Below the pieces are notes generated by a model that was not told the DNA's origin, did no database searches, and saw only the letters and a program-made list of their open reading frames with translations. A stretch of DNA of 64,000 nt, from the IMG/VR virus record IMGVR_UViG_3300022891_000002, positions 32,001-96,000 of that record; one strand, given 5' to 3'. Origin of the DNA: a virus. The position numbers were made by a program, and so were the translations under genes. This document shows positions 4,840 through 34,100 of this stretch, piece by piece (positions within the stretch are counted from its first letter, which is position 1; each line of letters begins with the position of its first letter).

Positions 4840-5064
4840 ATGGCAGGTAAAAGATTAGTTCAAGCAGCAAAAATGGCGGGTACTGGAGCAGGAACGGGTT
4901 GGGCTGCTGGCTATGCTTTAGGTGGAAATAACGATAAAGTTCCAATGGTAGTTAAAGGTAAATTGAAGAAAGGAGGGAAAAAAGCTCCTACAATTCAAAG
5001 AAGTGCTGCTATCGGTGGTTTAGCTTTAGGTGCAGGGATAGGCCTACTTAAAAAGAAAAAGTAA
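4840..5064 (+). CDS. Small Gly/Lys-rich protein (paralogous family member)
   Basis: GxxxG runs (GTGAGTGWAAG, GGLALGAGIG), KKKK tail, and an RBS-like GAGAGG upstream. Confidence 0.7.
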   Translation: MAGKRLVQAAKMAGTGAGTGWAAGYALGGNNDKVPMVVKGKLKKGGKKAPTIQRSAAIGGLALGAGIGLLKKKK

Positions 5065-6272
5065 TGACGATAATTCATTTTAATACTGTTCCTAGCGCGT
5101 TAAAAGAAGTTGGTAATAGTGAAGACCCAAATGAAATAGTAAAAGAAGGTTTAATATTCTACTCTACTGAAGAGAACAATCCACATATAGATAGTAGAAA
5201 AAATAAACATAACTTTTCCCCTGATAAAATTAGACAGTTAGTAGAGAATACTAATAAACATTTCAATATCTCTGAGTGTGGAATTCCTGTATTAACAGAG
5301 CATAAAAAAGATGTTAATAATGTGGTAGGCTTCATAGAGTCTCCAATGGAAGCTAGAGTAATAGATGAAACTTATACGAAAGGAAATCCAAAACTCAAAC
5401 ATTTATTAGGAAGAGTTGGTGTATTCGTTAAAGATGTTATTATCAAAACTCCAGAAATAGTTGATAAGATGAGAAGAGGTCTTGCTAAAACTGTTTCTGC
5501 GGGTATTGATTTAGATTCTTTTTCTATTAAAGAACTTTCACTTGTAGCTTTACCAGCAATACCAAACGCAACTCTTTTTAGTTATCATGCTAATAAAGAA
5601 GCTAAGAAACCAAACATGAAGAAAATTAAAAATAAGAATTTGTTAGTATCGAAAGGATATAGTAAAGAAAGTAATTATGCTTTATCTCTTGAAGAAGCTC
5701 TTAATACTTCACAAAGTATTGAAGAACAAAGAGAAGAAGCAATGAAGATATTTACTGCATTTCTGGAAGTAGTTGAAGATGCTAATGAGATTGACCCAGA
5801 GGAAATGGCTTCAATGGGGATACAAGACCCGTCTGAACTTATCCAAGGAGCAATTGAGGATTTATCGAATATGTTAGCTGAGATGTTTGTTTCTGTTCCT
5901 GAACCAGAGACTCAACAACCAGCTCCCGTAACTCCTCAAAGACCAGGAATGCCAGCTAAAACAGCTAGGTACTCTTTTTCTCCCGAGTTAATTAAGTTTG
6001 CAGCTAATCCTTACGCGAAGAGTGGTAGAATGGCTGCTACTGTTCAAAGTAAGATTAATGATATGGCTACTGGTAAAGGTGCTGCTGGAGTTTATAGCAA
6101 AATAGGTAAAGCAATCAAAACTGTTAAAGCTAATCCTCTTAAAACTGGAGCTGCTCTGTTAGTGGCGAACCAAGTAAGAAAAACAGGGATGAAAGCTTTG
6201 AGTAACCGTAAAAAGAAATCTCAAAGTTTAGAAGGTAAACTATCTCGTGCAATTAAAACATTTAAAAACTAA
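5064..6272 (+). CDS. Prohead maturation protease with C-terminal extensions
   Basis: VLTEH..VVGF (His), KTVSAGID (Ser) and KELSLVALPA match caudoviral prohead proteases. It lies upstream of the scaffold and capsid genes. Confidence 0.8.
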   Translation: MTIIHFNTVPSALKEVGNSEDPNEIVKEGLIFYSTEENNPHIDSRKNKHNFSPDKIRQLVENTNKHFNISECGIPVLTEHKKDVNNVVGFIESPMEARVIDETYTKGNPKLKHLLGRVGVFVKDVIIKTPEIVDKMRRGLAKTVSAGIDLDSFSIKELSLVALPAIPNATLFSYHANKEAKKPNMKKIKNKNLLVSKGYSKESNYALSLEEALNTSQSIEEQREEAMKIFTAFLEVVEDANEIDPEEMASMGIQDPSELIQGAIEDLSNMLAEMFVSVPEPETQQPAPVTPQRPGMPAKTARYSFSPELIKFAANPYAKSGRMAATVQSKINDMATGKGAAGVYSKIGKAIKTVKANPLKTGAALLVANQVRKTGMKALSNRKKKSQSLEGKLSRAIKTFKN

Positions 6273-8451: not shown

Positions 8452-9618
8452 ATGAGTCACGTCGCTAGTTTTTTTAATGAACCTTTTATCAATAAGCAGA
8501 TTAATGCTATTGTTGATGAAACACATCGAGATTTACTCAAACGAGATAAGTTAATCGATGAAGCAATGCCAACCCAGACGTTTGAAACTAGAAACTTCAT
8601 GGCGTTGTTAACTTCCCGTATTGCTCCTGCTGCTAGAGTAGTTGCTTGGGGTGCAGAGATTCCCGTTACTCGTCATGGAGGATTTGAGAAAGTTACAGCT
8701 CAGCTTACTAAACTTGCTTTATCTCACAGATATGATGAAGAAGATATGTGGGCATTGTCTGAAGCTTATCAACTAGCTGGTTATATGTGGAATAAGATTC
8801 AAACTATCCACAAGCCAGATGGAACTGTTCAACGAGGAGCTAATGATGACCTTGCTACAGCTTTATTTGGGGATGTCCAACAACTATTAGACGGTATGGT
8901 AGATAGAATGGACATGATGAAGTGGCAGGCAATATCTACTGGTGCATTAAACATCGAAGATATGTCTACTGGAGTTAAGTTTGAGATTGATTATAAGAAG
9001 TCAGACGCACCTTACAATCATTTTCCTCTACCTTTAGTTGCTACTGGTAATACTGTTACCCCTACTCTTAATAAGTGGAGTGATAAACAGAATGCTGATG
9101 GTTTCCGCAATATCCAAGATTTAACAGATATCTACGAAGATACTAACGGTTTCTTGCCAGATAAGATTGTGATGAACCGCAAACTTTGGAATATGTTCTT
9201 AGACCAGAAATCCACTAAGGAAGCTGCTCGTGCAATGACTACCTCAGAAATTGGTTTAGTTTCTAGAGATATGGCAGATGAACTATTGCGTAGACGTAAG
9301 TTACCTCCTGTAGTAGAGTTTGGTGAAAAGTATCATGAAGAAGTTCCAGGTGGAGAAGCTGTTACCGCTAATTTCTTGAACGATAATCGTCTAGTATTTC
9401 TCAAGAATAAGATGGGTATCTCAGCAATTGGCCCTACTATGGAATCTAAGACTAACATTATTTCTAGTGGTAAAGATATTCCTAAGATTAAGACTGGTAT
9501 TTACTTAGATATCTACACTGAAAACGGTCGCCCTCCTAATGATGTAGTAGCAACAGTAGCTAGCTTTATTCCTATAATCATGAATCCTAAACTTCTGATG
9601 GCACAAACAGTAAATTAA
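8452..9618 (+). CDS. Major capsid protein (lambda gpE-like, HK97 fold)
   Basis: Motifs AARVVAWGAEIP, RMDMMKWQAISTG, KFEIDY, KWSD, PDKIVMN and ASFIP fit Phage_cap_E. 388 aa. Confidence 0.85.
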   Translation: MSHVASFFNEPFINKQINAIVDETHRDLLKRDKLIDEAMPTQTFETRNFMALLTSRIAPAARVVAWGAEIPVTRHGGFEKVTAQLTKLALSHRYDEEDMWALSEAYQLAGYMWNKIQTIHKPDGTVQRGANDDLATALFGDVQQLLDGMVDRMDMMKWQAISTGALNIEDMSTGVKFEIDYKKSDAPYNHFPLPLVATGNTVTPTLNKWSDKQNADGFRNIQDLTDIYEDTNGFLPDKIVMNRKLWNMFLDQKSTKEAARAMTTSEIGLVSRDMADELLRRRKLPPVVEFGEKYHEEVPGGEAVTANFLNDNRLVFLKNKMGISAIGPTMESKTNIISSGKDIPKIKTGIYLDIYTENGRPPNDVVATVASFIPIIMNPKLLMAQTVN

Positions 9619-9624
9619 AAAAAT

Positions 9625-10077
9625 ATGAGACAATATATTCTCCACAAAACTTTTAGAGATAGAACTGGTAACTTTTATTGGGCTAGAACAGCTCCATATC
9701 CAGAGGGAGAACTACCTGAAAATATTACTAAAGACCCGACTAAAGTATCTATTATTGAAACTGATACTCATGTTGCAGAATCGGTTCTAATTACTCCTGT
9801 TCAAGAAATTAGGAACTTAACTCCTGCTGCTGAACATCTCATACCCCTAACTCCTCAATTTGTAGAAGCTACTCCTGTTATTACTACTAAGATAGATGTT
9901 AATACTGCTTCTATTGAAGATATTAAAAACGTTAAAGGAATAGCAGAGAAAACAGCAACTTTGATTGTAAGTAATAGACCTTATGAAAGTATGGCTGACC
10001 TTACTACTAGAGTTAAACCACCTTTGGGTAAAACTTGGAGTGATTTTCCATTTAAATACGGCTCAACTCCAGAGTAA
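9625..10077 (+). CDS. Protein with C-terminal ComEA-type helix-hairpin-helix domain
   Basis: KIDVNTASIEDIKNVKGIAEKTATLIVSNRPYESMADL. Confidence 0.75.
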   Translation: MRQYILHKTFRDRTGNFYWARTAPYPEGELPENITKDPTKVSIIETDTHVAESVLITPVQEIRNLTPAAEHLIPLTPQFVEATPVITTKIDVNTASIEDIKNVKGIAEKTATLIVSNRPYESMADLTTRVKPPLGKTWSDFPFKYGSTPE

Positions 10078-10100: not shown

Positions 10101-10139
10101 AAGTATAGTTTTGACATAAGAGACTATACTTTTATTTTT
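10101..10139 (+). terminator. Rho-independent terminator after the capsid operon
   Basis: AAGTATAGTT ... GACTATACTT inverted repeat followed by TTATTTTT. Confidence 0.65.
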
Positions 10140-10990: not shown

Positions 10991-11752
10991 ATGACTAAGC
11001 TAAGAATTATTAACAGAACTCCTTTAAAGAGTCGTGCAATTCCATTTATTGAACTACAGCCTAAATATCTTTATTGGCTAGACACTGGTAAAGAGATTGA
11101 TGTAGAAATTCTAAAAGAGAAAGATGGACATTATGAAGTAAAGCTGTCTACTAATTTTGAGAATTCTCCAGTAGGTATTCGCTCTTGGTTTATCTATAAA
11201 GAACACGTTCAAGTAGTAGAAGATAAGAAAAAGAAAGTATCTAAGAATGTACTTAAGACTGATTACTATTATCAATTAGATAATAGTTACCAACCTTATA
11301 CATCTTGTTTTCTTACTTGTGTAGCGATGTTACTATCTTTCTATAAAGTTAAGGTAACTCCTGACCAACTCTATAACAAGTGTCGTGATTTAGGATACGA
11401 CAGATTTTCTGGGGAAGGTATTGTAGCTATCCTTAAAAACTATGGGGTTAATTATCACTATACTACTTCTGGTACTGCTCAAGATTTAAAAGATACTGTT
11501 ACCAAGGCTCCTGTAATCTTAGGCACCTATCTAACTGAAGCTAGCCACATTGTGTTAGTAGTTGGCTATGACGAAACTGCTTATGATGGTCGTGGAGCTT
11601 TTATAGTCAATGACCCCTATGGAGAGTTTACTCATAACGGCTATATCCACACTCCTACAGCCGGCAAAAATACACTTTATTCTTTCTCTTTAATTGCTCA
11701 AGTTGGCGCACCTGAAGGAGACGGAAATTACTGGCTACATCTTCCAGTTTAA
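10991..11752 (+). CDS. Endolysin, peptidase C39-like domain
   Basis: YYYQLDN...SCFLTCVAMLL (Cys), SHIVLVVGYD (His) and FIVNDPYG (Asp). The N-terminal HYEVKL..WFIYKEHV module resembles cyanobacterial cell-wall hydrolases. Confidence 0.8.
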   Translation: MTKLRIINRTPLKSRAIPFIELQPKYLYWLDTGKEIDVEILKEKDGHYEVKLSTNFENSPVGIRSWFIYKEHVQVVEDKKKKVSKNVLKTDYYYQLDNSYQPYTSCFLTCVAMLLSFYKVKVTPDQLYNKCRDLGYDRFSGEGIVAILKNYGVNYHYTTSGTAQDLKDTVTKAPVILGTYLTEASHIVLVVGYDETAYDGRGAFIVNDPYGEFTHNGYIHTPTAGKNTLYSFSLIAQVGAPEGDGNYWLHLPV

Positions 11753-11757
11753 TTATT

Positions 11758-12033
11758 ATGAGAGAAAAAATGAAACGTTCGTTATATCTAAGTAAAACTT
11801 TTCTATTTGGTGTAGCTCTTTGGTTATCAGTTGCTTATGTACCAGTAGTTAATTGGATCTATGATGGTAAGTTAACTAAAGATGATTTTACGAGTCTTAT
11901 ACTTTCTACTGTTGGATTATTTGGTATTTCTAATGGAAGACTAAGAGTTAATGAAGATATTAAGAAAAGTGCAGAAACAGGAATTCCAGTTGGTCTACTT
12001 ACTCCAAGAGTAGCCCCAAAAGCAAAAGAATAA
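11758..12033 (+). CDS. Putative holin
   Basis: Two TM segments, a SKTF motif and a charged C-terminus. Directly follows the endolysin. Confidence 0.55.
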   Translation: MREKMKRSLYLSKTFLFGVALWLSVAYVPVVNWIYDGKLTKDDFTSLILSTVGLFGISNGRLRVNEDIKKSAETGIPVGLLTPRVAPKAKE

Positions 12034-12039
12034 AATGAA

Positions 12040-13599
12040 ATGGTTGTATTTTCTGTATTATTTGAGAATGTTGAGGGAGAGTATTATTACCGATATATAA
12101 GTGATAGTATTACGTATTATCTCCCTTCTTATAGGATTGATAGGTTAGATAAGCCAATCAGTAGTTTTATCAATGTTCAAGGGCCGATGTATGCTGAATC
12201 CGTTTATAAGTTCTTAGATAAAGTTTTTGAGACAGGGGAGAATATTGGTGATTTTGTTGTTACTGACCCAAGAAGTGAAAAAGAGATATCTCTAACTTTA
12301 TTTGGCTATAAGTATCTCAACTTTGTTATTTTAGTTGGTAGTCAAAAGTCTGATAGTTTACTAGAAAGCACTTTATTTAAAGAGAACTATTTATTTCTGA
12401 TTCAATGGACAGGTTCAAAAGAAGAGTTGGTAGATGATATTTCTGATAATGTAGTAAGTTTACTTGAATATACAAAACCAGAGATACTCGCAAAATCTTA
12501 CATTTCTTTTATTAATCCTGAAGATGTTCTTTCTTTTAAATCGGAATTAATTACTTACTTAGATAAAGGTACAGCGTCTTTCTATCAAAAATATAGATTA
12601 GTTAGTAAGTCAGGTAAAGATATAACTGTTCTTGACCATACTTGTAGAATTCTTAGAGAGGAGAAAGTAGTTACTATTAGCTATTTGAGAGACATTACTA
12701 AAGATGAGTTAATGTCTACTAAATTAGCTGAACTAGCTTTATTAGATGAAGAGAATTTTAATACTAGCTTACTTATAAAAATTGAATGGGATAGAAATTT
12801 TAACATTACGAGATGGAACAATCAAGCAGAAAATTTACTTGGTTGGGATAAATCAATATTAGGAAAGAATATTAGAGATACTCACCTTTTTAATTCAGAA
12901 GATACCACTACAATACAAGGTCAGATTGAAAGAATACTTAACCACAAATCTGAATTAGTAATTAGTAACTTTAGAGTAAATAAAAAAGATGGTAATCAGC
13001 TAGACATTAAATGTTCTAACAGGCTTGCTATTCGAGAAGGGGAACTTAGAGTTATTTCTTCTATTATTGACAGAAGTGAAGAAGCTTCTTTAACCACTCG
13101 CTTAGTAGAAATGGAGGAAAGGTCAGACTTATTGCTTAAAACTCTTTATTCTACTAATACTAACTTTAACAATGATGTGTTTAAAAAACTTGTAGATACT
13201 CCTTTGACTTCTAGCTCTGAAGGTTTAATTAAAGCTGAGATTATTATCAGAAAGATAGAAGAAGAGTTGAAGAGACTTAATGATACTATTTTTCACAATA
13301 ACGGTAACAACTTACTTAGTGAAGTAGCTAATCTCAAATATGATGTCAAAGACCTAAAAGAAGATGTTAATAGAGTTAAAGATAGTCAAGCTAAATTATC
13401 TTCTGAACTTAACGACTTACTTAATATTAATATTCTTAGTTTAAGTAAAAATTTAAACTTTAAAAATTTAACAGGATTGCTTGTAATTAGTTATGTAGTG
13501 TTTGGGATATTGTTTCCGGCTTTGTATCATAATCTAGCTAAACCTTATCTTATTCAATACAATAAAGAACTTAAACAAATAGAAGGTAAAAAAGATTAA
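12040..13599 (+). CDS. Dual-PAS domain protein with coiled coil and C-terminal TM helix, no kinase or cyclase output
   Basis: PAS/PAC 1 is FINPED...YRLVSKSGK...YLRDIT. PAS 2 is IEWDRNFNITRWNNQAENLLGW...KKDG...IIDRS. A heptad region and LLVISYVVFGILFPAL follow. Confidence 0.75.
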   Translation: MVVFSVLFENVEGEYYYRYISDSITYYLPSYRIDRLDKPISSFINVQGPMYAESVYKFLDKVFETGENIGDFVVTDPRSEKEISLTLFGYKYLNFVILVGSQKSDSLLESTLFKENYLFLIQWTGSKEELVDDISDNVVSLLEYTKPEILAKSYISFINPEDVLSFKSELITYLDKGTASFYQKYRLVSKSGKDITVLDHTCRILREEKVVTISYLRDITKDELMSTKLAELALLDEENFNTSLLIKIEWDRNFNITRWNNQAENLLGWDKSILGKNIRDTHLFNSEDTTTIQGQIERILNHKSELVISNFRVNKKDGNQLDIKCSNRLAIREGELRVISSIIDRSEEASLTTRLVEMEERSDLLLKTLYSTNTNFNNDVFKKLVDTPLTSSSEGLIKAEIIIRKIEEELKRLNDTIFHNNGNNLLSEVANLKYDVKDLKEDVNRVKDSQAKLSSELNDLLNINILSLSKNLNFKNLTGLLVISYVVFGILFPALYHNLAKPYLIQYNKELKQIEGKKD

Positions 13600-13601
13600 T
13601 T

Positions 13602-13952
13602 ATGTGGCGACCTTTTGACAGTCCAGCTAAAAAAAGAAAAAGATTTATAGAAAAAAACAGTCCTTATTTAGTTCCATTAGCAGTTGGAGGATTGGCAGCT
13701 ATGGGAGATGAAAATGCTTCAGTTAGACAAAGACTTAAAAGAGGAATGGTTACAGGAGGTCAGACTTTTGCAGCTATGAAGACCGCAGGAGTATTTGCTA
13801 ATAACGCAAGTAAGAAGAATTATTATAAAAATACTATTCTACCAACTGTTCAACAAGCTAGAGGAATTGCTAATACCGGACTGAACATTAAAAAAGATAT
13901 TAGAGCTGCTACTAGGTTTGATTTTTGGAAAAAGAAGAAAGGAATTATATGA
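13602..13952 (+). CDS. Small basic protein with hydrophobic segment (probable family member)
   Basis: KKRKRF, LVPLAVGGLAAMG and a WKKKK tail. Confidence 0.6.
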   Translation: MWRPFDSPAKKRKRFIEKNSPYLVPLAVGGLAAMGDENASVRQRLKRGMVTGGQTFAAMKTAGVFANNASKKNYYKNTILPTVQQARGIANTGLNIKKDIRAATRFDFWKKKKGII

Positions 13953-25136: not shown

Positions 25137-28100
25137 ATGGATACTTCAAGCAATATTAAATTTAATGTTGAGGGAGATGATAAACTCTCTCAGTTCTTAG
25201 AAAAAACTCAAAAATCATTTAAAGAGCTTAACGAGAAATCTCTTAGGTTATTTAATACTGGCTTGGGAGAAGGTTCTAAAAATTTAAAAGATATTACTAA
25301 ACAGTTCCAAAACAAAAAGAGTATAGTAGATAGTTTAGTTAAAGATTACGGTAAAGCTACGGCTGCTACTAATGATTGGACTGCTTCTTTAGGTAAGTTA
25401 ACTAAAACCACTGCATTATTAGGAAGAGCTTTAAATGCACTAAATATTGCCTCTATTGGCTCTGGAGTAGTTAAAACGGTTAGTACCGGAGTAGCAGAAA
25501 TCTTAGAGGCAGTAACACTTACTCAGACTGGTTTGAATACCATGGCTGCTTCTGGTTTTGATGGTACACCTTTAATGAATTCTTTAGGGGAAATTACTGC
25601 TGTTTTAACGGGTAACAGTCAGGCAATAGAAAGCTTTTCAGCAAGGTCTTCTGCTGCTTTTAACGCATTTGAACAGAAACTAAATGAAGTTAACATTGTA
25701 TTTGGATTGTCTCAAGAAAGATTATCTGAATATGGGGACTCCCTACAAAACGGTTTAGAGAAGAATCTTAAAAATAGTGTAGGTTCTCTTACTGCTCTTA
25801 ATGCTGCCTATCAAGCTGCTAGTGCCGGATTTACTGAATTCCAACAAAACCAAGATGTTGTTAACCTAGCAATTAAAGCTAATAAAGCAGCCCCGGGAAG
25901 TGACCTATTCCAGATTGGTGGAGCTATTGGTAAAGGTGCAGGTATTCTTGAAACTAGAGATATTGCAGAATTAGAAGAAGTAACTGCTAAATGGCTGGCT
26001 ACTGAACAACTAGGTCTTACTACTGTAGGAGACATGACTGAGTATATTTCAGATATGTACAGCTCCCTTAAAAATGCAGGTATCGGTACCAATGACCTGG
26101 TTAATGAGACTCAAGGTTTGGTAGTAGCATTTACTAAGTTAGGTGGCAAAGTTACTGACATCTCAACAGAAATGCAAGCCTTCGCTCGTAACACTATTGG
26201 TAAAACTCCTGAAGCAATGAAAGCTTTAGAAGGATTGGTAGATGCACAGGGGAAAGCAATTACTCTCAACCAAGAATATTTTGGTAGAAAAGGAGTTGTT
26301 CAGGGTATAGTTGACTTTGCTGAAGCAGTTGGCTATAACACTGAGAAAATTAAGGAAGTTTATAACGAGACTAATGCTTTCAACTTTGCAATGAAGGTCT
26401 TAGCTCAAAACGGTAATCTTGCTAAGAAATCTATTGAGGATATTAGTCAAGTAACTTCTGAGAATTTAACTGAAGCTTTTGATTCTGCTACTTCTTCGTC
26501 TCAAGCAAAAATGGAACAAATCACAAATGCTTATGATGAGATAATGATTTCGTTTGGTAAAGCGTTCCAAAAGAGAACTGAGGAAGGTGTTAAATCTGTT
26601 GAGTGGTACAAAGAAGTTTTAGTTAAATTCAAAGAGCCATTAGTAGAAATAGCTGAACGCATGGTTAATTTCTATGATGGTTTAGGTAAGATAACTGGAA
26701 CTCTTGGCGCGTTAGCTAAGATGTTGTTTGGTATTGCCGGAACTATTATTTCTTTTAGAGCTTGGGGATTAGTTTTAGGAGGAATTACTAACGGCTTTAA
26801 AGATTTAAGAAAGGAAGGGTCAGTAATAAAAGAACTCTACCAATCAAATCAAGGTTTATTAGCTATCGGTAAACAAGTTCTTGGGTTAGACCAGCAAAAA
26901 CTTCTAAGTCAAAATAGAATTAATGAAGCAATTAAAAACTCTGCTACTTTAGAGAAAGAGCTTAGTAACTCTATTGGTAAGTCTAGTGCTGATAGATTAA
27001 ATAATATCGGAGTAATTAAAGAAGAGATAGACTCAATTGTTGCTCGTGACCAATCAATTATCAAAGGTCAACAGAACGTAACTAAAGTAGAAGAATCTCT
27101 TAAAAGTAAAACAGATAAACGAGATAGTCAACAGTCCGACGTTACAAATACTCAGAAAAGCTTAGCTAATCTTAAAGTTCTTAAACAAGATATAGATAAC
27201 ACATTTAAAGACAATGTAGAGAATACTAAAAGGTCGGTTCGATTACAAGAAATAGCTACTGAACAATCTGCAATTACACAGCGAAAAGCTAGTAAAGAAG
27301 ATTTAAAAAGATATGTGGAGCTTAATACTGAAAAGCTAAGACTTCAAGATACTTATAACAAAACTACTCTTGACCAATTATCTTCTCTAGAAAAACAGAA
27401 ATCTATTCTTAATAATAAATCTAGAAAGTCAGAAAGAGATTATGCAGCTTTAGATAAACTCAATACAAGAGAGACTCAATTACTTGATAGGGAAAGAACT
27501 AAAGATAGAACTCCTTTAACTCAAGATAAAAGAAACGAGCTAAATAATACTCGTAAAGATGTTGTTACTAAAATAGGTCAAGAAGAATTAGTTCTATTAA
27601 CTCAGAGACAAAAGTTACAAGAAGCTAACAACATAGTAGATAAAGAAACTGAAAAATTAAATAAAGCTAAAACCGACCAAGCTGAAAAACTTAATAGAGT
27701 TACTAAGACTACTACTGAATTAGCTGTTCTTCAACAAGACCTCAATACTAAGAAAAATACTTTAGATAGAGTTAATATTGCTTTTGAAGGTCAGCAACAG
27801 AAACTTTATACAATTCAAAATGCTTTAAGAAAAGAACAAACTACTTTAGATAAGATAAGAAATAAAGATAGTGTAGAATACTTACAACAACAGAAGAAGG
27901 TACTGACTCTACAAGTAGAAGAAGCTAAACAACTTTCTACTGTCCAAAGTGCTAGAACTACTCAACAAGCAGCACAACAAACTTATAACAAAGCAGAGTT
28001 TGAGAGTAAAAGAAAATCTATTCAGCTAACTAGAGAACAAGGACTAGCTGAAGGTACTCTTATTGAGATGAGAACTCGTTCAGGTTCAGTTGCCCTTAAA

Positions 28101-31100
28101 AATAATGCGTTTAATAGAGCTTTAATTGCTACTAATGAAGGTCTTACTAAATCTTTTAAAGCAATAGCTACTCCTGCTCAATCTTTTACCAGCATTCAAG
28201 ATACTCTTAGCAATAAGATGGCTGACTTGAGAAGTAATATTGGTCAAATAGGAACGGTAGCTAGTAGAAGTTTTACAGGAATGGCTGCTTCTGCTCAAAC
28301 TACTTTTGCTTCTATCGGAACCTCTGCTGCCTTAATGGGTGAAACTATCAAAGCTGCTTTTATTTCTACAGGTATAGGTCTATTAATTGGGGCCGTAATA
28401 GCATTAGGAGCTAAACTATTTCAAGTTGGTCAAGCTTCTGCAAAATTAGATAAAACTTATAAAGACTTTAATGTAACTCTTGAAGACTCTGCTACTAAAT
28501 TTGATAGAGCAAATATCTCTTTTGACAATAGCGTTCAAGGACTTAATAAGTTCAGTGACAGACTAGAAGCTTCTAAAAAGTTAATGGCAGATGTGGACAC
28601 TACTGTCTTTGATGACTTAGGTAATGGAATTAAAGGTGCTGTTGGAGGAATAGTAGATTTTGTAAAGACTGCTACTGGACTTAAACTGTTAGACCCTTTA
28701 TTTGCAAATATTGGTGAAAGAATCTCAGCCATTTGGACTAGCTTTTCAGACGCAGAATTCATTAAACGTTCTGCTAAAATGACTCAAATATCAGATTTTA
28801 TTCAAACTTATGAGTTAGCTCTTAGAGGACAAAATAAAGAATTAGCAAACGGAAACCTATTAACTGAAACTTCTAATCAAAAGATTAAAGCTCGGATGAT
28901 TTTGACTGGCGAGGATTTAGAGCGAGAAAAAGCTGCTAATACCGCTAGAATTGATTCGTTCCAGTCTATGACAGATATTCAAAAGAAAGAGTTAGAAGAG
29001 TTAAAAGGTAAAGGGGACAAGCTAAACGAAAGAGATAAACAACAAATTGCTTTATTAGAATCAGAAATTTCTAGACGTGAAAAAGTAATAGAAGTAAGTA
29101 AAAAACAATTTGAAGACCAACTCAAGTATTATGAAGCTCGTAACCTTTTATTAGATAGAGAGAACAAGTTTAGTAATACTCAAGTATCTTTAGAAGAAAT
29201 TAAGAGTTTACAAGGACAAGTTAATTCTTCTCAAACTGCTCTTAACACTAATATTTCAGAAGGTTTAGACATTTATTCTGCGTCTATTAAAGATTCTTCT
29301 GTTAAATCTAAGCAATTCTTATCTGACCTTAAAGATGGGAGTTTAAGCGTAAAAGCCACTCTTAAAGGTCTGGGTGGAGAAATCTATAAAGTTGGAGAAG
29401 ATGGTAAAGTTCTATCTAAATTGCCAGATACAGTTCTTAAATCTATTGAAACAGTTCTTAAAGGTAAAGAGATAGATGGTAAGAAATATACGTTAGAGCA
29501 AGTTCTAGGTCTTAAAGAAACTAGAGATGCGTTAACTGAGGCAGGAGTAGAAATACCTAAAGACCTTTCTGTTCTTGCTGATAAAATGCGTAAGAGCTAT
29601 GAAGAATCTGAAGGTCAAATCAAACTTATCAATCTCAAAGACCTTGAAAAAGATTTAGCTGATTTTAGTGTTTTATCAGATAAGTATCAAGAGAAGAAAA
29701 GACAGTTTCTATCCACAACTAAAGATGATGTTGGTGCTACTGCATTTTCTACTTCTCTTAAGAAATCTCTGAGGTTAGCAGAAACAGATTTACAGTCTTT
29801 CCTAAACGCTCTAGATTCGTCTTCTAAGGGCTTGAATAAGTATGTGACTGCTTCTACTAATAAATTCACTAAAGAAGCCTTAGATGGAACATTAGACCTT
29901 ACTGAAGGCTTAAAGGAGCTAGGTCAGGTAGAAAGTGAAATTAAAACTGAGCAGTTAGATAAACTTAAAGCTGCTATTACCGGAAAGAACAAAGATGAGA
30001 TTTTAGTAGCTCTTAAAGAGATTGGAGTAGAAACTGAAAAAGCTCTTACAGCAGATTCAATTGATTTCAATAAGTTTGAAGAGAACTTGGGAATGTATGT
30101 TGAATCTTTAAATGCAGTTGCAGAAAGTGGAGAAGCTACAAGTGAAGAAATAGCTAAGAAGTTTGAGAATGTCTACAACCAAATGAAAGGTAGAGTTACT
30201 CCGGCTGCCTACAAAGATTTAACTGAGACTCTAATTGGTTATGAAAAAGCGGCTTCGGAACAACGAATCAGCTATATTGGAATGGAAACTTCTGCTCTTG
30301 AACAACAGAAGAAATATGGATTCTTACTAGAAACAGATTATATAGAGCAAATTAATAAACTCAATATTCAAACTTCTGAAGAAAATATTAAGAATAAGAA
30401 AATAGAACTAGCTAGGTTACTTACTTTATACAAAGAATCAGCTCCTCAAGTAGTTAAAGCTAAAGCAGAATTAGAAGCTCTCGAACTGAATCTTTCAAGT
30501 CAAAAGTCCAATAATCCCGTAGAAATTGCTAAAGCTCAAAGCAAAGAAAGATTTGATACTTTAAAGAAAGAACTTGAACTAGGAACTATAACTAGGAGAC
30601 AGTTTATTGAAGAAGAACTCAAAGATTCTAGAACTCTTTATGAAACTCAGCTAGTAGAAAAACAAAAAACTCTTACGGAATTACTAAAAGATGAAGTTAA
30701 AAATGCTAAAGCTATCAAAGCTCTTCGTAAATCTATGGAGTCAGATGAGCAAGACTTTAACTTAAATCTATTAGAAATTAACAGAAGGAGAATAGAAGAA
30801 CAATTTAAGCTACAAACTAATGCTTTAGGTAAGAGAGAGCTTGAAGCTAGAAAAGACGCTCTTAACGGAAATACTAAAGAGGAACTTGAATCTGTCCGTA
30901 AATTAGAAACAGATAAGATTGCTCTAAACATTCAGACTTTAGAAGCTAGGTTAGCAGTAGAAAAACAAGGAAGTGAGAAGTTCTTAGAAATAGAGAAACA
31001 GTTATCAGAAGCTCGACTATCTTTACAAGAAACTCAAGTTAAACAATCTAAAGATAGAACTAATGAAGAGATTGAGAGAAAGAAAAGTGAGTTAAACACT

Positions 31101-34100
31101 ATAGCTGCTCTTGAAGAACGCAACAATATTCGTGGTACTAGCAATAAAAGTCTTGAGAATACTCGTCAACTAAGAGAGAAAGAAGTTCAGTTATCTATTG
31201 ATTCTATTAACTCCCAAATTGCTCTGACTGAAAAAGGAAGTAAGGAAAGGTTAGCTCTTGAACAACAGTTAGTTCTCGAAGTTAATAAGTTACAGAAGAC
31301 TCAATTTGATAACCAGAAAGAAAGACTAGAACAATCCTTAGAAGATAGACGTAAAAAGTTAGAAGCTAAACAAATGGATTTAGAGAAGAATTCTATTAAA
31401 GGTACTACTGATGAAGATATTGAAGCTAGCAGAAAGTTAAAAGAAGAGGAAATCAATTCTACTATTGAAACTCTTAAGCAAAGGTCAGCTCTGTATCGTG
31501 AAGGTAGCAAAGAGAGAGTTGCTCTTGAACAAGAAATAGCTAAAGAAACTCTTAGGTTAGATAAGCAAGTCTATGAAAATCAAAAGTCTAGATTACAGAC
31601 TCAAATAGATAACAAGAAGAAAGCTTTTAAGGATAGTCAACTAGCTCTAGAAAAACTTTTGGTACTTGGAACCTCTACTGAAGATTCTAAGAAAGTTCGT
31701 GCATCTAAAGAGCAAGAAATTCAACTGACTATTGAAGGTATTAAACAAGAAATTAACTTAACTAAAGCGGGTTCTACTCAAAGAAAAGACTTAGAACGTA
31801 GCTTAAGAGAAGAGTTACTTAAGTTAGATAAACAAAGAATAGCAAATAAGAGAGATTTAATCGATGAAGAGATATCTTTAGAAAAAACTAAGATTACTAA
31901 AATCCAGTCTCTACTTGAACGTTCTACTATTGGCGGAACTTTTGAGAAAGATTTAGAAAAGATAAGAGAACTTAAAGTCAAGGAAACTCAAATTGTAATT
32001 CAATCTATTCAGAAGCAATTAGCAACTTACAAGTTAGGTAGCAAAGAGAGATTAAATTTAGAAGCAGCTTTAACTCAAGAGATTACTAAGTTACAAAAGA
32101 TTCAGTTTGGTAACAAGAAAGAGAAGCTAGAATCCCAACTTGAAGATGCAAAAAATAAATTAGATAAGCAGATTGCATTAAAAGAAGCTGCTCTAGTAGA
32201 TGGTGCAACTGAAAACGAACTTAAGATAGTAGAAGCTGCAAAAATAAAAGAGACACAGCTTACTATTGACTCTCTTAAAAAGCAGATAAATCTTTATAAA
32301 GTTGGTAGTAAAGAACGTCTTGCATTAGAAGTAAATCTACAAAAAGAAATCAACAATCTTAGGAAACAAACTTTAGATAAAGAAAAGAATTTAATTCAAA
32401 CTAATTTAGAGTTCAAGAAAACTCGAATTGATTTGGACAATATTGAGCAAGAGAAGAAACTTCTGAGAGGAGATACGGATAGAGAAAGTTTTGAAGATAA
32501 GTTAACTGCTTCATCTCAAAGAGTAAATCTATTACAACAAGATGCGTTTACCAAACAACTTAAACTCTATCAAAAAGGAAGTAGAGAATATTTAGATATT
32601 TTGAAAAATCTTTCCCAGCTTCAAGTAGATTACCAAAAGTCAGTAGTAGACAAAGCTATTCGTGATATTGACAGAATTACTAAAGCTCAGAACAACTCAA
32701 TAGAAGCTCAGAAAATATTTATTACTCGTCAACTTAGTTCTAGTGATAACTTAACTAAGGAACTTCAAGAGCAAATTAAACTTGAGGATTCTCGAAGTTC
32801 AGTAGTTAAAGCTACAGCGGACTATCAAGTTGGTTTATTAGAACTAGCTAAAAGGTCAACTGGAGATGTAGAGAAAAGAGCTAAAATTGATGTTCAAATA
32901 GCTGAATTAAAACAAAAGTCTCTATTAGAAGCTCAAGAGTTAGAAATTAATTCTATTAAGAACAACGCAATTATTAATGAAGCTGCCTTGGAAAGAGAAC
33001 GAATCCAAATCAGCCTTAATAGATTAGAGCTTGATAGAAGTAAGTTACAGACTGAAGCAGAACTAAGGAAAGCTAAGTTAAATAAGTTAGATTCAGCAGC
33101 AATAGAAGCTCTCCAGTTACAGCTAGACTCTATTAATGACCAATATGACGCTCTTGGTAGAAGTGAAAATCTTATTTCTACTCAAATTGCTAATCAAGCT
33201 GAAATTAGTCAAAATCAAATTAGAGTCATTAAGCAACAGCAAGATTTAGCTCAAAAGAATAGTGCGTTAGACGTTGAACAAGCTAAACAAGGTCTTATCA
33301 TTGCAGGTTACGAGAAACAGCTCTCACAACTTAAGATGAAAGGAACGTTAATAGAAGCCAATGCAAATAAAGAAAAAGTTATTGGTGACTTGCTAACTAA
33401 AGCTTACGACACTCAGATTGCTCTATTAAATAGTAGAAAGGAATTAATGGACTCTACTCTTGGCTCTATTGATACTTTGTACGGAATTGAGCAGTCAATG
33501 GCTAAATCTGACTTAACTAAAGACAAGTTAGCTAGAGAACAGGCTAAAGATAAACTGACTTTCCTAGAACTTCAACAAAGAATGGAGAATGAAAGTTTTA
33601 ATCTAGAAAAAGCTAAGAATAAGATTGTAAGAGAGAGACAAAAAGTAGAGCTAACTATTGCAGAAATTAATGCTAAACAAGCTCTTGCAATGTCCAAAGC
33701 AGAAGAAGCTAGAACTAACGCTAGAAAAGATGCTACTGATGAAGAGAAATTAGCATCTCGATTAGCCGTTGAATCTGCGGAACAAGGAATTTTAGCAGCT
33801 AAAGCAAATAAGGAACTAGCTATTGAAGTATCTAAAATAGAAGAACAATCCGAGAAGAATAAAGAACTAATTAATGCTCGGAACCAAAGAAATCAAAGAC
33901 TACAAGCAGAAATGGCAGTTGCACAAACTACTACTAATACCGCTGATGATAGTCAAGTAAGAGGCAAAGCTCAGAGATTCAGAGAGTTAGATGAAAGAAG
34001 TATAGGAGATAATAATTTAACTTCTAATACTCAATCACAAGTAGAGAAGATACTTAAAGAATTTAGTGAGTCTATGAGGTCACGTAAGCCGATTGAGGAA

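What the first reader, a model, noticed from the sequence alone, without database searches (positions are those of the whole stretch)
10991..13599. Lysis cassette containing a kinase-less dual-PAS membrane protein: possible sensor-gated lysis
Seen: endolysin, a two-TM holin-like gene and a 519-aa protein follow each other with gaps under 10 nt. The third protein has two PAS/PAC modules, a coiled coil and one C-terminal TM helix, with no HisKA, GGDEF or HTH output. Known: PAS domains sense light, redox state or ligands, and coiled-coil plus C-terminal TM proteins are common next to phage lysis genes. Inference: a host-derived sensor grafted onto a holin/antiholin-like anchor, tying lysis timing to the physiological (e.g. 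light/redox) state of a photosynthetic host.
Basis: partly seen in the sequence, partly recalled or inferred. Interest (0 to 1): 0.75.

Follow-up and report, generated by a model that had tools for sequence, protein, structure and literature searches.

The report
PAS sensor protein in phage lysis cassette
An uncultured 150-kb phage, probably of a cyanobacterium, keeps a membrane-anchored sensor-type (PAS) protein with no known output directly behind its cell-wall-cutting enzyme and hole-forming protein, so it may time host bursting to a signal inside the cell; this is untested.

Summary
Three same-strand genes lie 5 and 6 nt apart:
- a 253-aa beta-barrel plus Peptidase_C39_2 protein;
- a 91-aa protein with two hydrophobic segments and holin-like layout;
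- a 519-aa protein with three PAS-like domains, a heptad coiled coil and one C-terminal TM helix, with no kinase, GGDEF or HTH domain.

The order is kept in all 12 other distinct contigs of this about 150-kb phage clade that reach far enough (PAS protein 51-85% identical). The triad always sits between the capsid and neck/tail genes. Two sister-clade genomes (95-100% complete) lack both the peptidase and the PAS protein.

The peptidase is the only cell-wall hydrolase candidate found in the genome. All 32 phage records holding a relative are cyanophages.

My best reading (about 0.45) is a lysis cassette in which the tail-anchored PAS dimer partners or restrains the holin. The closest analogues are PBSX XhlA (by architecture) and the T4 antiholins (by function). 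Sequence membership in XhlA and Phage_holin_1 was tested and failed.

Light or redox sensing and host origin are not supported. There is no LOV cysteine, the closest solved PAS domains belong to proteins not known, to my knowledge, to carry a cofactor, and no close cellular homologue exists.

Other follow-ups of this scan report membrane-anchored PAS proteins in lysis cassettes on other DNA. I did not test those notes.

The parts
10991..11752 (+). 253-aa putative endolysin: N-terminal beta-barrel (residues 1-85) plus papain-like Peptidase_C39_2 domain (residues 89-210)
   Evidence: Pfam PF13529 at 3.6e-16 and phrog_10051 'endolysin' at 2.4e-21. Q95, C106, H186 and D208 are invariant in 19 family members. 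The AF2 model shows beta strands followed by an alpha/beta domain. Foldseek returns C39 peptidases and SH3b+NlpC/P60 peptidoglycan peptidases. It is the only C39_2 copy in the genome, and none of the six other wall-hydrolase families searched is present.
11255..11620 (+). Peptidase_C39_2 catalytic domain of the 253-aa protein
   Evidence: The Pfam best stretch is residues 89-210 against profile positions 2-143 of 143. The six-frame search of the genome finds the same place.
11758..12033 (+). 91-aa holin-like membrane protein with a basic N-terminus, two hydrophobic segments and a charged C-terminal tail
   Evidence: Hydropathy gives segments at 16-34 and 44-62. The family alignment A2 is 53-90% identical with 33 invariant columns. 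A MxxKMKRS two-methionine start occurs in 5 of 6 members. The nearest ESM Atlas clusters are Phage_holin_1 at score 0.91, a lead only. No Pfam holin hit was found, and hhalign to a true Phage_holin_1 gives probability 0.5%.
12040..13599 (+). 519-aa tail-anchored triple-PAS coiled-coil protein ('PAS519')
   Evidence: There are 33 homologue clusters of 513-520 aa at 50-87% identity.
12040..12345 (+). N-terminal PAS-like alpha/beta domain (residues 1-102), not detected by Pfam
   Evidence: AF2 secondary structure is E4-11, E14-18, H40-65, E67-75, E82-92, E95-102. The Foldseek alignment to the triple-PAS protein PpsR spans 338-382 columns.
12388..12693 (+). PAS-A (residues 117-218), PAS_3 type, ending in the invariant YLRDIT linker motif; D199, H200 and C202 are invariant
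   Evidence: Pfam PAS_3 scores 1.4e-11. Invariant columns come from alignment A1. The profile search of PDB is topped by PERIOD at 5e-7 and ARNT at 4e-5.
12775..13071 (+). PAS-B (residues 246-344)
   Evidence: Pfam PAS_9 and PAS, and TIGR00229 over residues 240-347. The top PDB match, the ThkA PAS domain, is only E 0.013.
13072..13422 (+). Helical region (residues 345-461). Residues 345-432 are the most conserved part of the protein, with an invariant PLT kink and an NNxNN break; residues 393-461 form a heptad coiled coil.
   Evidence: 43% of columns are invariant, against 16-25% in the PAS domains. A distant homologue, P0064, aligns through this region and has PLT at the same place. Only generic coiled-coil hits appear in PDB and Pfam.
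13462..13539 (+). C-terminal transmembrane helix (residues about 475-500), followed by a 19-residue charged tail
   Evidence: KD 19-mer mean is 2.25. AF2 predicts a helix at 475-516. Y485, F488, P493 and Y496 are invariant within the helix.

Best explanation
The three genes form a late-expressed lysis module embedded in the structural operon of an about 150-kb phage, probably a cyanophage.

The 253-aa protein is a cytoplasmic endolysin with no signal or SAR sequence. It combines a beta-barrel wall-binding-type domain with a papain-like C39_2 cysteine peptidase that would cut peptidoglycan peptides. The 91-aa protein is a class-II-type holin that lets the endolysin through the cytoplasmic membrane.

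The 519-aa protein is a dimeric, tail-anchored membrane protein. Three cytoplasmic PAS-like domains feed through DIT-type linkers into a strongly conserved helical and coiled-coil stalk, and that stalk ends directly in a TM helix. Its 'output' would therefore be the state of that stalk and TM helix in the membrane, which either assists or blocks holin oligomerisation. The architectural analogue is the XhlA co-factor; the functional analogue is an antiholin. Hole formation would thus depend on a cytoplasmic signal read by the PAS domains.

Shown here: the gene order, the domains, the conservation, the co-occurrence and the lack of any other hydrolase candidate. Inferred: endolysin activity, holin function, any contact between the holin and the PAS protein, and the existence and nature of a signal.
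For: - The genes are tightly packed on the same strand with no strong promoter- or terminator-like site between them.
- The order peptidase, small membrane protein, PAS protein holds in the window and in 12 other distinct contigs. PAS identity falls to 51% and capsid identity to 54%.
- The peptidase and the PAS protein are both present in 3 large clade genomes and both absent from 2 sister-clade genomes that are 95-100% complete.
- Peptidase_C39_2 is a catalogued endolysin domain type (table in PMC5017753). All 32 phage records with a relative are cyanophages, and 13 of the 32 listed records label it endolysin (2 more lysozyme). In Microcoleus phage My-WqHQDG and Synechococcus phage S-CBP2 it is followed by small TM proteins.
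- The 150-kb genome holds no Phage_lysozyme, Amidase_2, SLT, M15_4, M23 or NlpC/P60.
- The 91-aa protein meets the usual holin criteria quoted in PMC9096620: adjacency to the lysin, 65-95 aa with two TM segments, and a charged C-terminus.
- In the PAS protein the post-PAS helical region is the most conserved part and the TM helix carries invariant aromatic and proline positions, which argues for a specific partner and against a mere anchor.
- There is precedent for a coiled-coil, C-terminal-TM protein required together with holin and endolysin: XhlA (PMC5589764, PMC10630273).
Against: - There is no experiment and no modelled or measured contact between the two membrane proteins.
- All context comes from one clade, so the linkage may reflect shared descent and need not reflect function.
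- The triad sits among head and 'cargo' genes. In one relative a leader-tagged cargo-type gene lies between the peptidase and the small protein.
- The small protein hits no holin family, and the C-terminal module is not XhlA by sequence.
- No PAS ligand can be named.
- No spanin-like partner for the outer membrane was seen next to the triad.
- Other small TM ORFs exist elsewhere in the genome.
Confidence: 0.45

Rival explanations
1. The endolysin-holin pair is real, but the PAS protein has a different late function at the membrane and only hitch-hikes next to the lysis genes. It could be a decoy or tether for a host signalling protein, a superinfection or host-physiology switch, or a membrane platform for assembly.
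For: - The endolysin plus small-TM pair occurs without any PAS gene in Microcoleus phage My-WqHQDG, so the PAS gene is an add-on.
- The most conserved part is a soluble helical region, not the TM helix, which fits binding of a cytoplasmic partner.
- PAS-A resembles the protein-interaction PAS domains of PERIOD and ARNT.
- Neighbouring genes in this operon are heterogeneous: decoration-like, cargo and neck genes.
Against: - The PAS gene is never separated from the small membrane protein in 13 contigs, although other genes come and go around the triad.
- It is gained or lost together with the peptidase.
- A tail anchor places it in the same membrane as the holin.
Confidence: 0.28
2. The triad belongs to the head and cargo system, not to lysis. 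On this reading the C39-like peptidase removes the short ITF-x-G leaders of the neighbouring basic glycine-rich proteins, or is itself packaged and ejected to open the wall at entry. The two membrane proteins would then serve assembly or entry.
For: - The triad lies between capsid and neck genes, next to leader-tagged cargo genes, and one cargo-type gene is inserted inside the triad in L004.
- The top fold matches include a papain-like toxin and double-glycine leader peptidases such as PCAT1 and 6mpz.
- My searches found no recognisable prohead protease in the window.
- In Arthronema phage TR020 the homologue sits between the capsid and tail-tube genes.
Against: - The same peptidase family occurs in T4-like and T7-like cyanophages, which by my own knowledge lack such cargo arrays, and is labelled endolysin or lysozyme there.
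- In Acaryochloris phage A-HIS1 neighbouring genes are marked as virion structural proteins but the homologue is not.
- The N-terminal beta-barrel plus papain-like layout matches peptidoglycan peptidases over their full length (6biq, 3m1u).
- The peptidase has no cargo leader.
- The genome would be left with no recognisable endolysin.
Confidence: 0.15
3. The roles inside the lysis cassette are swapped. The 519-aa protein would be the hole-former itself, a single-TM holin with a large regulatory domain as in T4 holin T. The 91-aa protein would be its antiholin or a pinholin.
For: - The single TM helix has invariant residues.
- A large soluble domain on a one-TM holin has precedent in T4 T (PMC11413866, PMC8385771).
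- The second hydrophobic segment of the 91-aa protein is weak and rich in Gly, Ser and Thr.
Against: - T4 T has its large domain in the periplasm and an N-terminal TM, which is the opposite layout.
- The endolysin plus small-TM pair works as a unit without a PAS protein in another phage.
Confidence: 0.1

Closest known systems
[quoted passage not shown]
   Same: Both are three-gene cassettes of endolysin, small holin and a membrane protein built as a cytoplasmic coiled coil followed by one C-terminal TM helix. In PBSX all three genes are needed for lysis. The weak Pfam XhlA alignment is colinear, with the coiled coil leading into the TM.
   Different: XhlA is about 90 aa and has no sensor. Here about 345 residues of PAS domains and a conserved helical region precede the coiled coil. 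Sequence membership fails: 8-11 bits against a 34.7-bit cut-off, and hhalign probability 0.4% against a true XhlA. The host here is probably a diderm cyanobacterium, not a Firmicute.
T4 lysis inhibition: holin T with antiholins RI (periplasmic sensor) and RIII (cytoplasmic) (PMC8385771, PMC11413866)
   Same: A separate phage protein with a sensing role acts on the holin after translation to set the time of lysis.
   Different: There is no sequence or fold relation. RI senses superinfection in the periplasm. Here the sensing part is cytoplasmic, of PAS type and tail-anchored, and an antiholin role is only inferred.
Lambda S107/S105 and phage 21 S71/S68 dual-start holin/antiholin motifs (own knowledge)
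   Same: The 91-aa gene starts M-x-x-K-M-K-R in 5 of 6 family members. Two in-frame starts would differ by extra basic residues.
   Different: One subgroup has only the second start. Use of both starts has not been shown.
VqmA_Phage of vibriophage VP882 (PMC8284805)
   Same: It is a phage-encoded PAS-domain receptor through which a small-molecule signal decides when the host is lysed.
   Different: VqmA_Phage is a soluble PAS-HTH transcription factor that triggers prophage induction. The protein here has no DNA-binding domain, is membrane-anchored, and sits among the lysis effector genes.
PAS-containing sensor histidine kinases, including phage- and giant-virus-encoded ones (BFVD hits; FixL and DosP)
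   Same: Both have tandem PAS domains joined by DIT-type linkers to a C-terminal coiled coil.
   Different: There is no HisKA or HATPase domain. The helix ends in a TM anchor instead of a kinase.

Membership tests
Peptidase_C39_2 (PF13529), papain-like cysteine peptidase | Profile match above the curated cut-off | tested here: met
   60.5 bits against a 24-bit cut-off, covering profile positions 2-143 of 143. The six-frame genome search gives 61.8 bits.
Peptidase_C39_2 (PF13529), papain-like cysteine peptidase | Conserved Gln, Cys, His and Asp/Asn catalytic residues in papain order | tested here: met
   Q95, C106, H186 and D208 are invariant in 19 members. Their assignment as the catalytic residues rests on motif position and was not checked on a superposition.
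Phage endolysin (functional class) | Degrades peptidoglycan from within at the end of infection | not testable with these tools
   Only indirect evidence is available: the phrog_10051 'endolysin' hit, the listing of PET-C39-2 as an endolysin domain (PMC5017753), its status as the sole hydrolase candidate, and the adjacent holin-like gene.
Phage endolysin (functional class) | Cell-wall-binding module (for example SH3b) | tested here: inconclusive
   The model gives an all-beta barrel at residues 1-77 and aligns over full length with SH3b+NlpC/P60 enzymes 6biq and 3m1u. No SH3 Pfam hit was found, and the model is weak (pLDDT about 60).
Class II holin (criteria of Wang et al. 2000 as quoted in PMC9096620) | Gene adjacent to the endolysin gene; 65-95 aa; two TM domains; charged hydrophilic C-terminus | tested here: met
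   The gene starts 5 nt after the peptidase gene and encodes 91 aa with hydrophobic segments at 16-34 (KD 1.78) and 44-62 (KD 1.11, weak). The tail carries several conserved charged residues (R61, R63, D67 invariant).
Phage_holin_1 (PF04531) | Profile or sequence similarity | tested here: not met
   None of the 6 members hits Pfam at E<=10. hhalign against the IME-EFm1 Phage_holin_1 protein gives probability 0.5%. The only support is an ESM Atlas look-alike at 0.91.
PAS domain | Profile matches above cut-off, and the PAS alpha/beta fold | tested here: met
   PAS_3, PAS_9, PAS and TIGR00229 all score above their cut-offs. The AF2 PAS domains reach pLDDT 70-88, and Foldseek E-values to FixL, DosP, PpsR and ARNT are about 1e-13.
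LOV / flavin photoreceptor PAS | Adduct-forming cysteine in the GxNCRFLQ motif | tested here: not met
   Read from alignment A1. PAS-A has no cysteine at that site, and PAS-B reads G-K-N-I-R with a nearly invariant Ile where the Cys would be. No LOV protein is among the best sequence matches.
Sensor histidine kinase | HisKA/DHp domain with phospho-acceptor His, and an HATPase_c domain | tested here: not met
   No such Pfam or NCBIfam hit appears, even at E<=10 on the C-terminal 180 residues. A T-P-L-T motif recalls the H-box, but Lys stands where the His would be.
XhlA (PF10779) | Profile match above cut-off | tested here: not met
   3 of 6 members match at E 0.47-3.5, far below the 34.7-bit cut-off and no better than generic coiled-coil families. 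hhalign against a true XhlA gives probability 0.4%.
XhlA (PF10779) | Architecture and place: cytoplasmic coiled coil plus C-terminal TM, encoded beside holin and endolysin | tested here: met
   See for the architecture, and for the gene order.
Spanin (i-spanin) | N-terminal TM with a periplasmic coiled coil, paired with a lipoprotein o-spanin | tested here: not met
   The TM is C-terminal with only about 19 residues beyond it, so the coiled coil is cytoplasmic. The genes that follow vary among relatives and are cargo-type. No systematic lipobox search was made.
Antiholin (functional class) | Binds the holin and delays triggering | not testable with these tools
   No complex prediction or experiment was available.

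The most novel reading that the evidence does not exclude
Tail-anchored PAS proteins are a so-far undescribed class of holin regulators. On this reading a cytoplasmic sensor is wired through a coiled coil straight into a membrane helix, so the phage sets the moment of lysis by the host's internal state (a metabolite, energy or redox signal) and not by a fixed holin clock. If the membrane-anchored PAS proteins that other follow-ups of this scan report in lysis cassettes of unrelated phages hold up, this would be a general and convergent strategy.
Probability: 0.3. Interest if true: 0.8.

Novelty: new variant of a known kind. Interest (0 to 1): 0.58.

Why it matters
Lysis timing fixes burst size and latent period. 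The known post-translational controls are few: dual-start antiholins, T4 and ICP1 lysis inhibition, P1 LydB. None of them reads a cytoplasmic signal through a PAS domain.

A sensor fused directly to a membrane anchor inside a lysis cassette would show that phages can couple the final step of infection to host physiology. That matters for cyanobacteria, where infection dynamics follow light and energy supply (PMC7112961, PMC5931967).

The triad is also a compact three-gene system that can be tested by heterologous expression. In addition it documents a C39-like cysteine peptidase as the likely standard endolysin of many cyanophages.

Tried and rejected
- **C-terminal module outside the clade.** The profile of residues 340-519 searched against 1.84 billion representatives found only the family itself and one weak singleton, P0064 (391 aa, PAS-PAS-coiled coil-TM, 24% identity).
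- **Context of P0064.** Viral and metagenome scans found nothing.
- **Homology of the small protein to the 2-TM protein behind the My-WqHQDG peptidase.** BLASTP gave nothing and hhalign gave probability 28%, so I do not claim it.
- **XhlA and Phage_holin_1 membership.** Both were rejected.
- **A degenerate HisKA/DHp reading of the PLT-containing helices.** No profile support.
- **Cofactor assignment from solved structures.** There were no direct sequence hits, and the profile hits are to proteins not known, to my knowledge, to bind a cofactor.
- **Fold search of the helical stalk.** Not attempted, because model confidence there is below 50.
- **Promoter and terminator scan.** Nothing above chance, apart from one promoter-like site at 10111-10138 upstream of the preceding genes.
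- **Prohead protease.** None was identified by PHROGs, Pfam, NCBIfam or PDB, so the leader-peptidase rival cannot be closed.
- **Leader-tagged cargo genes in the sister clade.** None were found in the 19-kb stretches held, so this does not separate the rivals.
- **Literature.** No paper in the library links a PAS domain to a holin or antiholin in a phage lysis cassette.
Full report
**What the window is**

The window is bases 32001-96000 of a 150,360-bp IMG/VR viral contig with about 33% G+C. Two relatives of 151,199 and 146,537 bp have direct terminal repeats. In the second, the capsid gene and the triad lie at opposite contig ends. The genome size of this clade is therefore about 150 kb, and the CheckV estimate of 49% is misleading.

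The region 181-35,400 is one long + strand structural operon. It holds these genes:
- a 1065-aa protein of unknown family;
- several genes without family hits;
- the major capsid protein at 8452-9618 (phrog_29, 4e-33);
- an HHH protein;
- two small all-unknown proteins;
- the triad;
- basic glycine-rich genes carrying a shared N-terminal tag;
- a Gp80-like protein;
- a neck protein;
- a 3228-aa tape-measure-like ORF.

The capsid protein is closest to Pseudanabaena phages Pam2 and PA-SR01, at 28% identity.

**The observation**

The PAS protein has more to it than was seen. The AF2 model (mean pLDDT 65; 70-88 in the PAS domains) shows three PAS-like alpha/beta domains at residues 1-102, 117-218 and 246-344. 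These are followed by helices at 345-371, 378-386, 393-419 and 425-461, and by a helix at 475-516 that contains the hydrophobic segment. Foldseek matches tandem and triple PAS proteins such as FixL PAS-A/B, DosP, PpsR and ARNT at E about 1e-13.

Heptad periodicity is significant in residues 393-419 and 425-461. No kinase, GGDEF or HTH domain is detectable. The genome holds no other PAS gene.

**The peptidase as endolysin**

- The C39_2 match is strong, and Q95, C106, H186 and D208 are invariant in the family.
- Peptidase_C39_2 is one of the catalogued endolysin catalytic domains (table in PMC5017753).
- A tblastn search of 50,697 phage records finds relatives in 32 records, all cyanophages (Synechococcus, Prochlorococcus, Microcoleus, Acaryochloris, Leptolyngbya, Arthronema). 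13 of the 32 listed records annotate it as endolysin and 2 more as lysozyme.
- The best match, Microcoleus phage My-WqHQDG, is 33% identical over 96% of the length, including the N-terminal domain. It is followed at once by a 106-aa protein with two TM segments.
- In S-CBP2 two small TM proteins follow the homologue.
- Six-frame searches of the whole 150-kb genome find no Phage_lysozyme, Amidase_2, SLT, Peptidase_M15_4, M23 or NlpC/P60, and only this one C39_2 copy.
- The protein has no signal or SAR segment, so it would need a holin.

The fold model is weak (pLDDT 60). Its best matches mix leader peptidases (PCAT1, 6mpz), a papain-like toxin, and SH3b+NlpC/P60 wall peptidases aligned over full length. 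The fold alone therefore does not decide between endolysin and leader peptidase.

**The 91-aa protein**

The family is 53-90% identical. It has a basic N-terminus, a strong hydrophobic segment, a short polar loop, a weaker Gly/Ser/Thr-rich segment and a conserved charged tail. It meets the classical position, size and topology criteria for a class II holin (quoted in PMC9096620).

Five of six members begin M-x-x-K-M-K-R, which recalls dual-start holin/antiholin genes. One subgroup has only the second start.

It belongs to no Pfam holin family. A true Phage_holin_1 protein does not align with it. The ESM Atlas look-alikes of that family are only a lead.

**Linkage**

There are 33 homologue clusters of the PAS protein at 50-87% identity, all 513-520 aa long, and none is fused or truncated.

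A tblastn of the four window proteins against all fetched loci shows the order peptidase, small protein, PAS protein in every clade contig that extends far enough. That is 12 distinct contigs plus the window, with the triad 2.3-3.3 kb downstream of the capsid gene (gene tables).

Genes around the triad vary. One relative has a leader-tagged 137-aa gene between the peptidase and the small protein, and the gene after the PAS gene differs between relatives.

Two sister-clade genomes (capsid 33-34% identical, 132-139 kb, 95-100% complete) have neither the peptidase nor the PAS protein anywhere. They carry unrelated genes after the capsid gene.

The evidence nonetheless amounts to one gain in one clade.

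**What the PAS protein's own sequence says**

The most conserved stretch is not a PAS domain. It is the helical region 345-432, with 43% invariant columns against 16-25% in the PAS domains. It contains an invariant P-L-T kink and an N-N-x-N-N break. The only distant homologue found, P0064 (24% identity, E 5e-15 pairwise), aligns through this region and has P-L-T at the same place.

The TM helix is variable overall but holds four invariant positions: Y485, F488, P493 and Y496. PAS-A ends in the invariant YLRDIT, and PAS-B ends in I-D-x-S-x-E. By established knowledge of PAS signalling, these are the linker motifs that couple PAS cores to C-terminal signalling helices.

Together this suggests a sensor whose downstream helix is the functional output and has a specific partner.

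On ligands, the PAS-A profile is closest to PERIOD, ARNT and HIF PAS domains (5e-7 to 1e-4). PAS-B matches ThkA only at E 0.013, which is not significant. Heme PAS domains appear only at E about 0.5, and the LOV cysteine motif is absent. H200 and C202 in a PAS-A strand are invariant, and their role is unknown.

No cellular protein came close in sequence. Recent capture from a host is therefore not supported.

**Comparison with known systems**

By architecture and position, the C-terminal third resembles XhlA. XhlA is the membrane protein that, with holin XhlB and endolysin XlyA, is needed for PBSX lysis. In Enterococcus phages it always accompanies Phage_holin_1 or Dp1 holins (PMC5589764, PMC10630273).

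I tested membership directly. Pfam XhlA appears in 3 of 6 members only at E 0.47-3.5, no better than generic coiled-coil families. hhalign against a verified XhlA (IME-EFm1 gene 22, PF10779 at 8.8e-14) gives 0.4% probability. It therefore works like an XhlA-type accessory at best and is not a family member.

Functionally the nearest concept is an antiholin with a sensing role, as in T4 RI/RIII (PMC8385771, PMC11413866). The nearest phage PAS sensor that governs lysis is VqmA_Phage of VP882, a transcription factor (PMC8284805).

Placement of lysis genes between head and tail genes is known from phage P2 (own knowledge). It recurs for this peptidase in Arthronema phage TR020.

I found no paper linking a PAS domain to a phage holin or antiholin.

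**Rivals**

- The PAS protein may be a passenger with another membrane function (0.28).
- The triad may belong to the head and cargo system, with the peptidase as leader protease or ejected wall hydrolase (0.15). I could not identify any prohead protease to close this rival.
- The roles of the two membrane proteins may be swapped (0.10).

**Other notes of this scan**

Notes from other follow-ups report membrane-anchored PAS proteins inside lysis cassettes of unrelated phages. I did not test them and do not count them as support. If confirmed, they would turn this single-clade linkage into a recurrent one.

**Verdict**

The lysis reading is the best one but is unproven. The light/redox and host-origin parts of the first interpretation are unsupported. 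I class the finding as a new variant of a known kind, a lysis cassette with an accessory or regulatory membrane protein that here carries PAS sensors.

Noticed in passing
window 11758-11775: The holin-like gene begins M-R-E-K-M-K-R, with two in-frame Met codons four codons apart and extra basic residues in the longer form. This holds in 5 of 6 family members and resembles lambda and phage 21 dual-start holin/antiholin motifs. The L008/L009 subgroup has only the second start.
   Followed up: partly
L004 7308-7721 (also L016): A 137-aa basic gene with the cargo-type leader (M-R-L-I-T-F-A-S) and a glycine-zipper segment is inserted between the peptidase and the small membrane gene in one relative. 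Cargo genes evidently move in and out of this region.
   Followed up: partly
whole record; G004, G005; L008/L009 contigs: CheckV calls these about 150-kb contigs 42-49% complete, yet two of them have direct terminal repeats, and one is permuted so that the capsid gene and the triad lie at opposite ends. The 308-325-kb JGI contigs that probably drive the estimate may be concatemers.
   Followed up: partly
window 9625-10077; L031 12681-13214; L034 10775-11308: A helix-hairpin-helix protein follows the capsid gene. It is kept even in the sister clade whose capsid is only 33-34% identical. It gives a sub-threshold PsbU-like hit (E 7e-5). A DNA-binding-type motif in a head-module protein is unusual.
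   Followed up: no
L031 10249-11832: A 527-aa GIY-YIG/NUMOD homing endonuclease is inserted directly after the capsid gene in one sister-clade genome.
   Followed up: no
window 5064-6272: Earlier first-reader notes call this ORF the prohead protease. It has no hit in PHROGs, Pfam, NCBIfam or PDB sequences, so the head maturation protease of this phage is not identified.
   Followed up: partly
P0064 (ENA contig of 1.9 kb): This 391-aa singleton has two PAS domains, the same P-L-T helical region (its stalk break reads N-K-D-N where the family has N-N-x-N-N) and a C-terminal TM helix. It is 24% identical to the window protein and is the only relative outside the clade among 1.84 billion representatives.
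   Followed up: yes
window 13602-13952: The 116-aa ORF right after the PAS gene is very basic (24 K+R against 6 D+E). At this position relatives carry different genes, some with the cargo leader. No spanin-like pair was seen next to the triad, so how the outer membrane would be breached is open.
   Followed up: partly
phage collection: Relatives of the C39_2 peptidase occur only in cyanophage records (32 of 32), across myo-, podo- and siphovirus types. The family looks like a marker of cyanophage lysis genes.
   Followed up: partly
window 25137-34823: A single 3228-aa ORF sits in the tape-measure position and has two internal hydrophobic segments.
   Followed up: no
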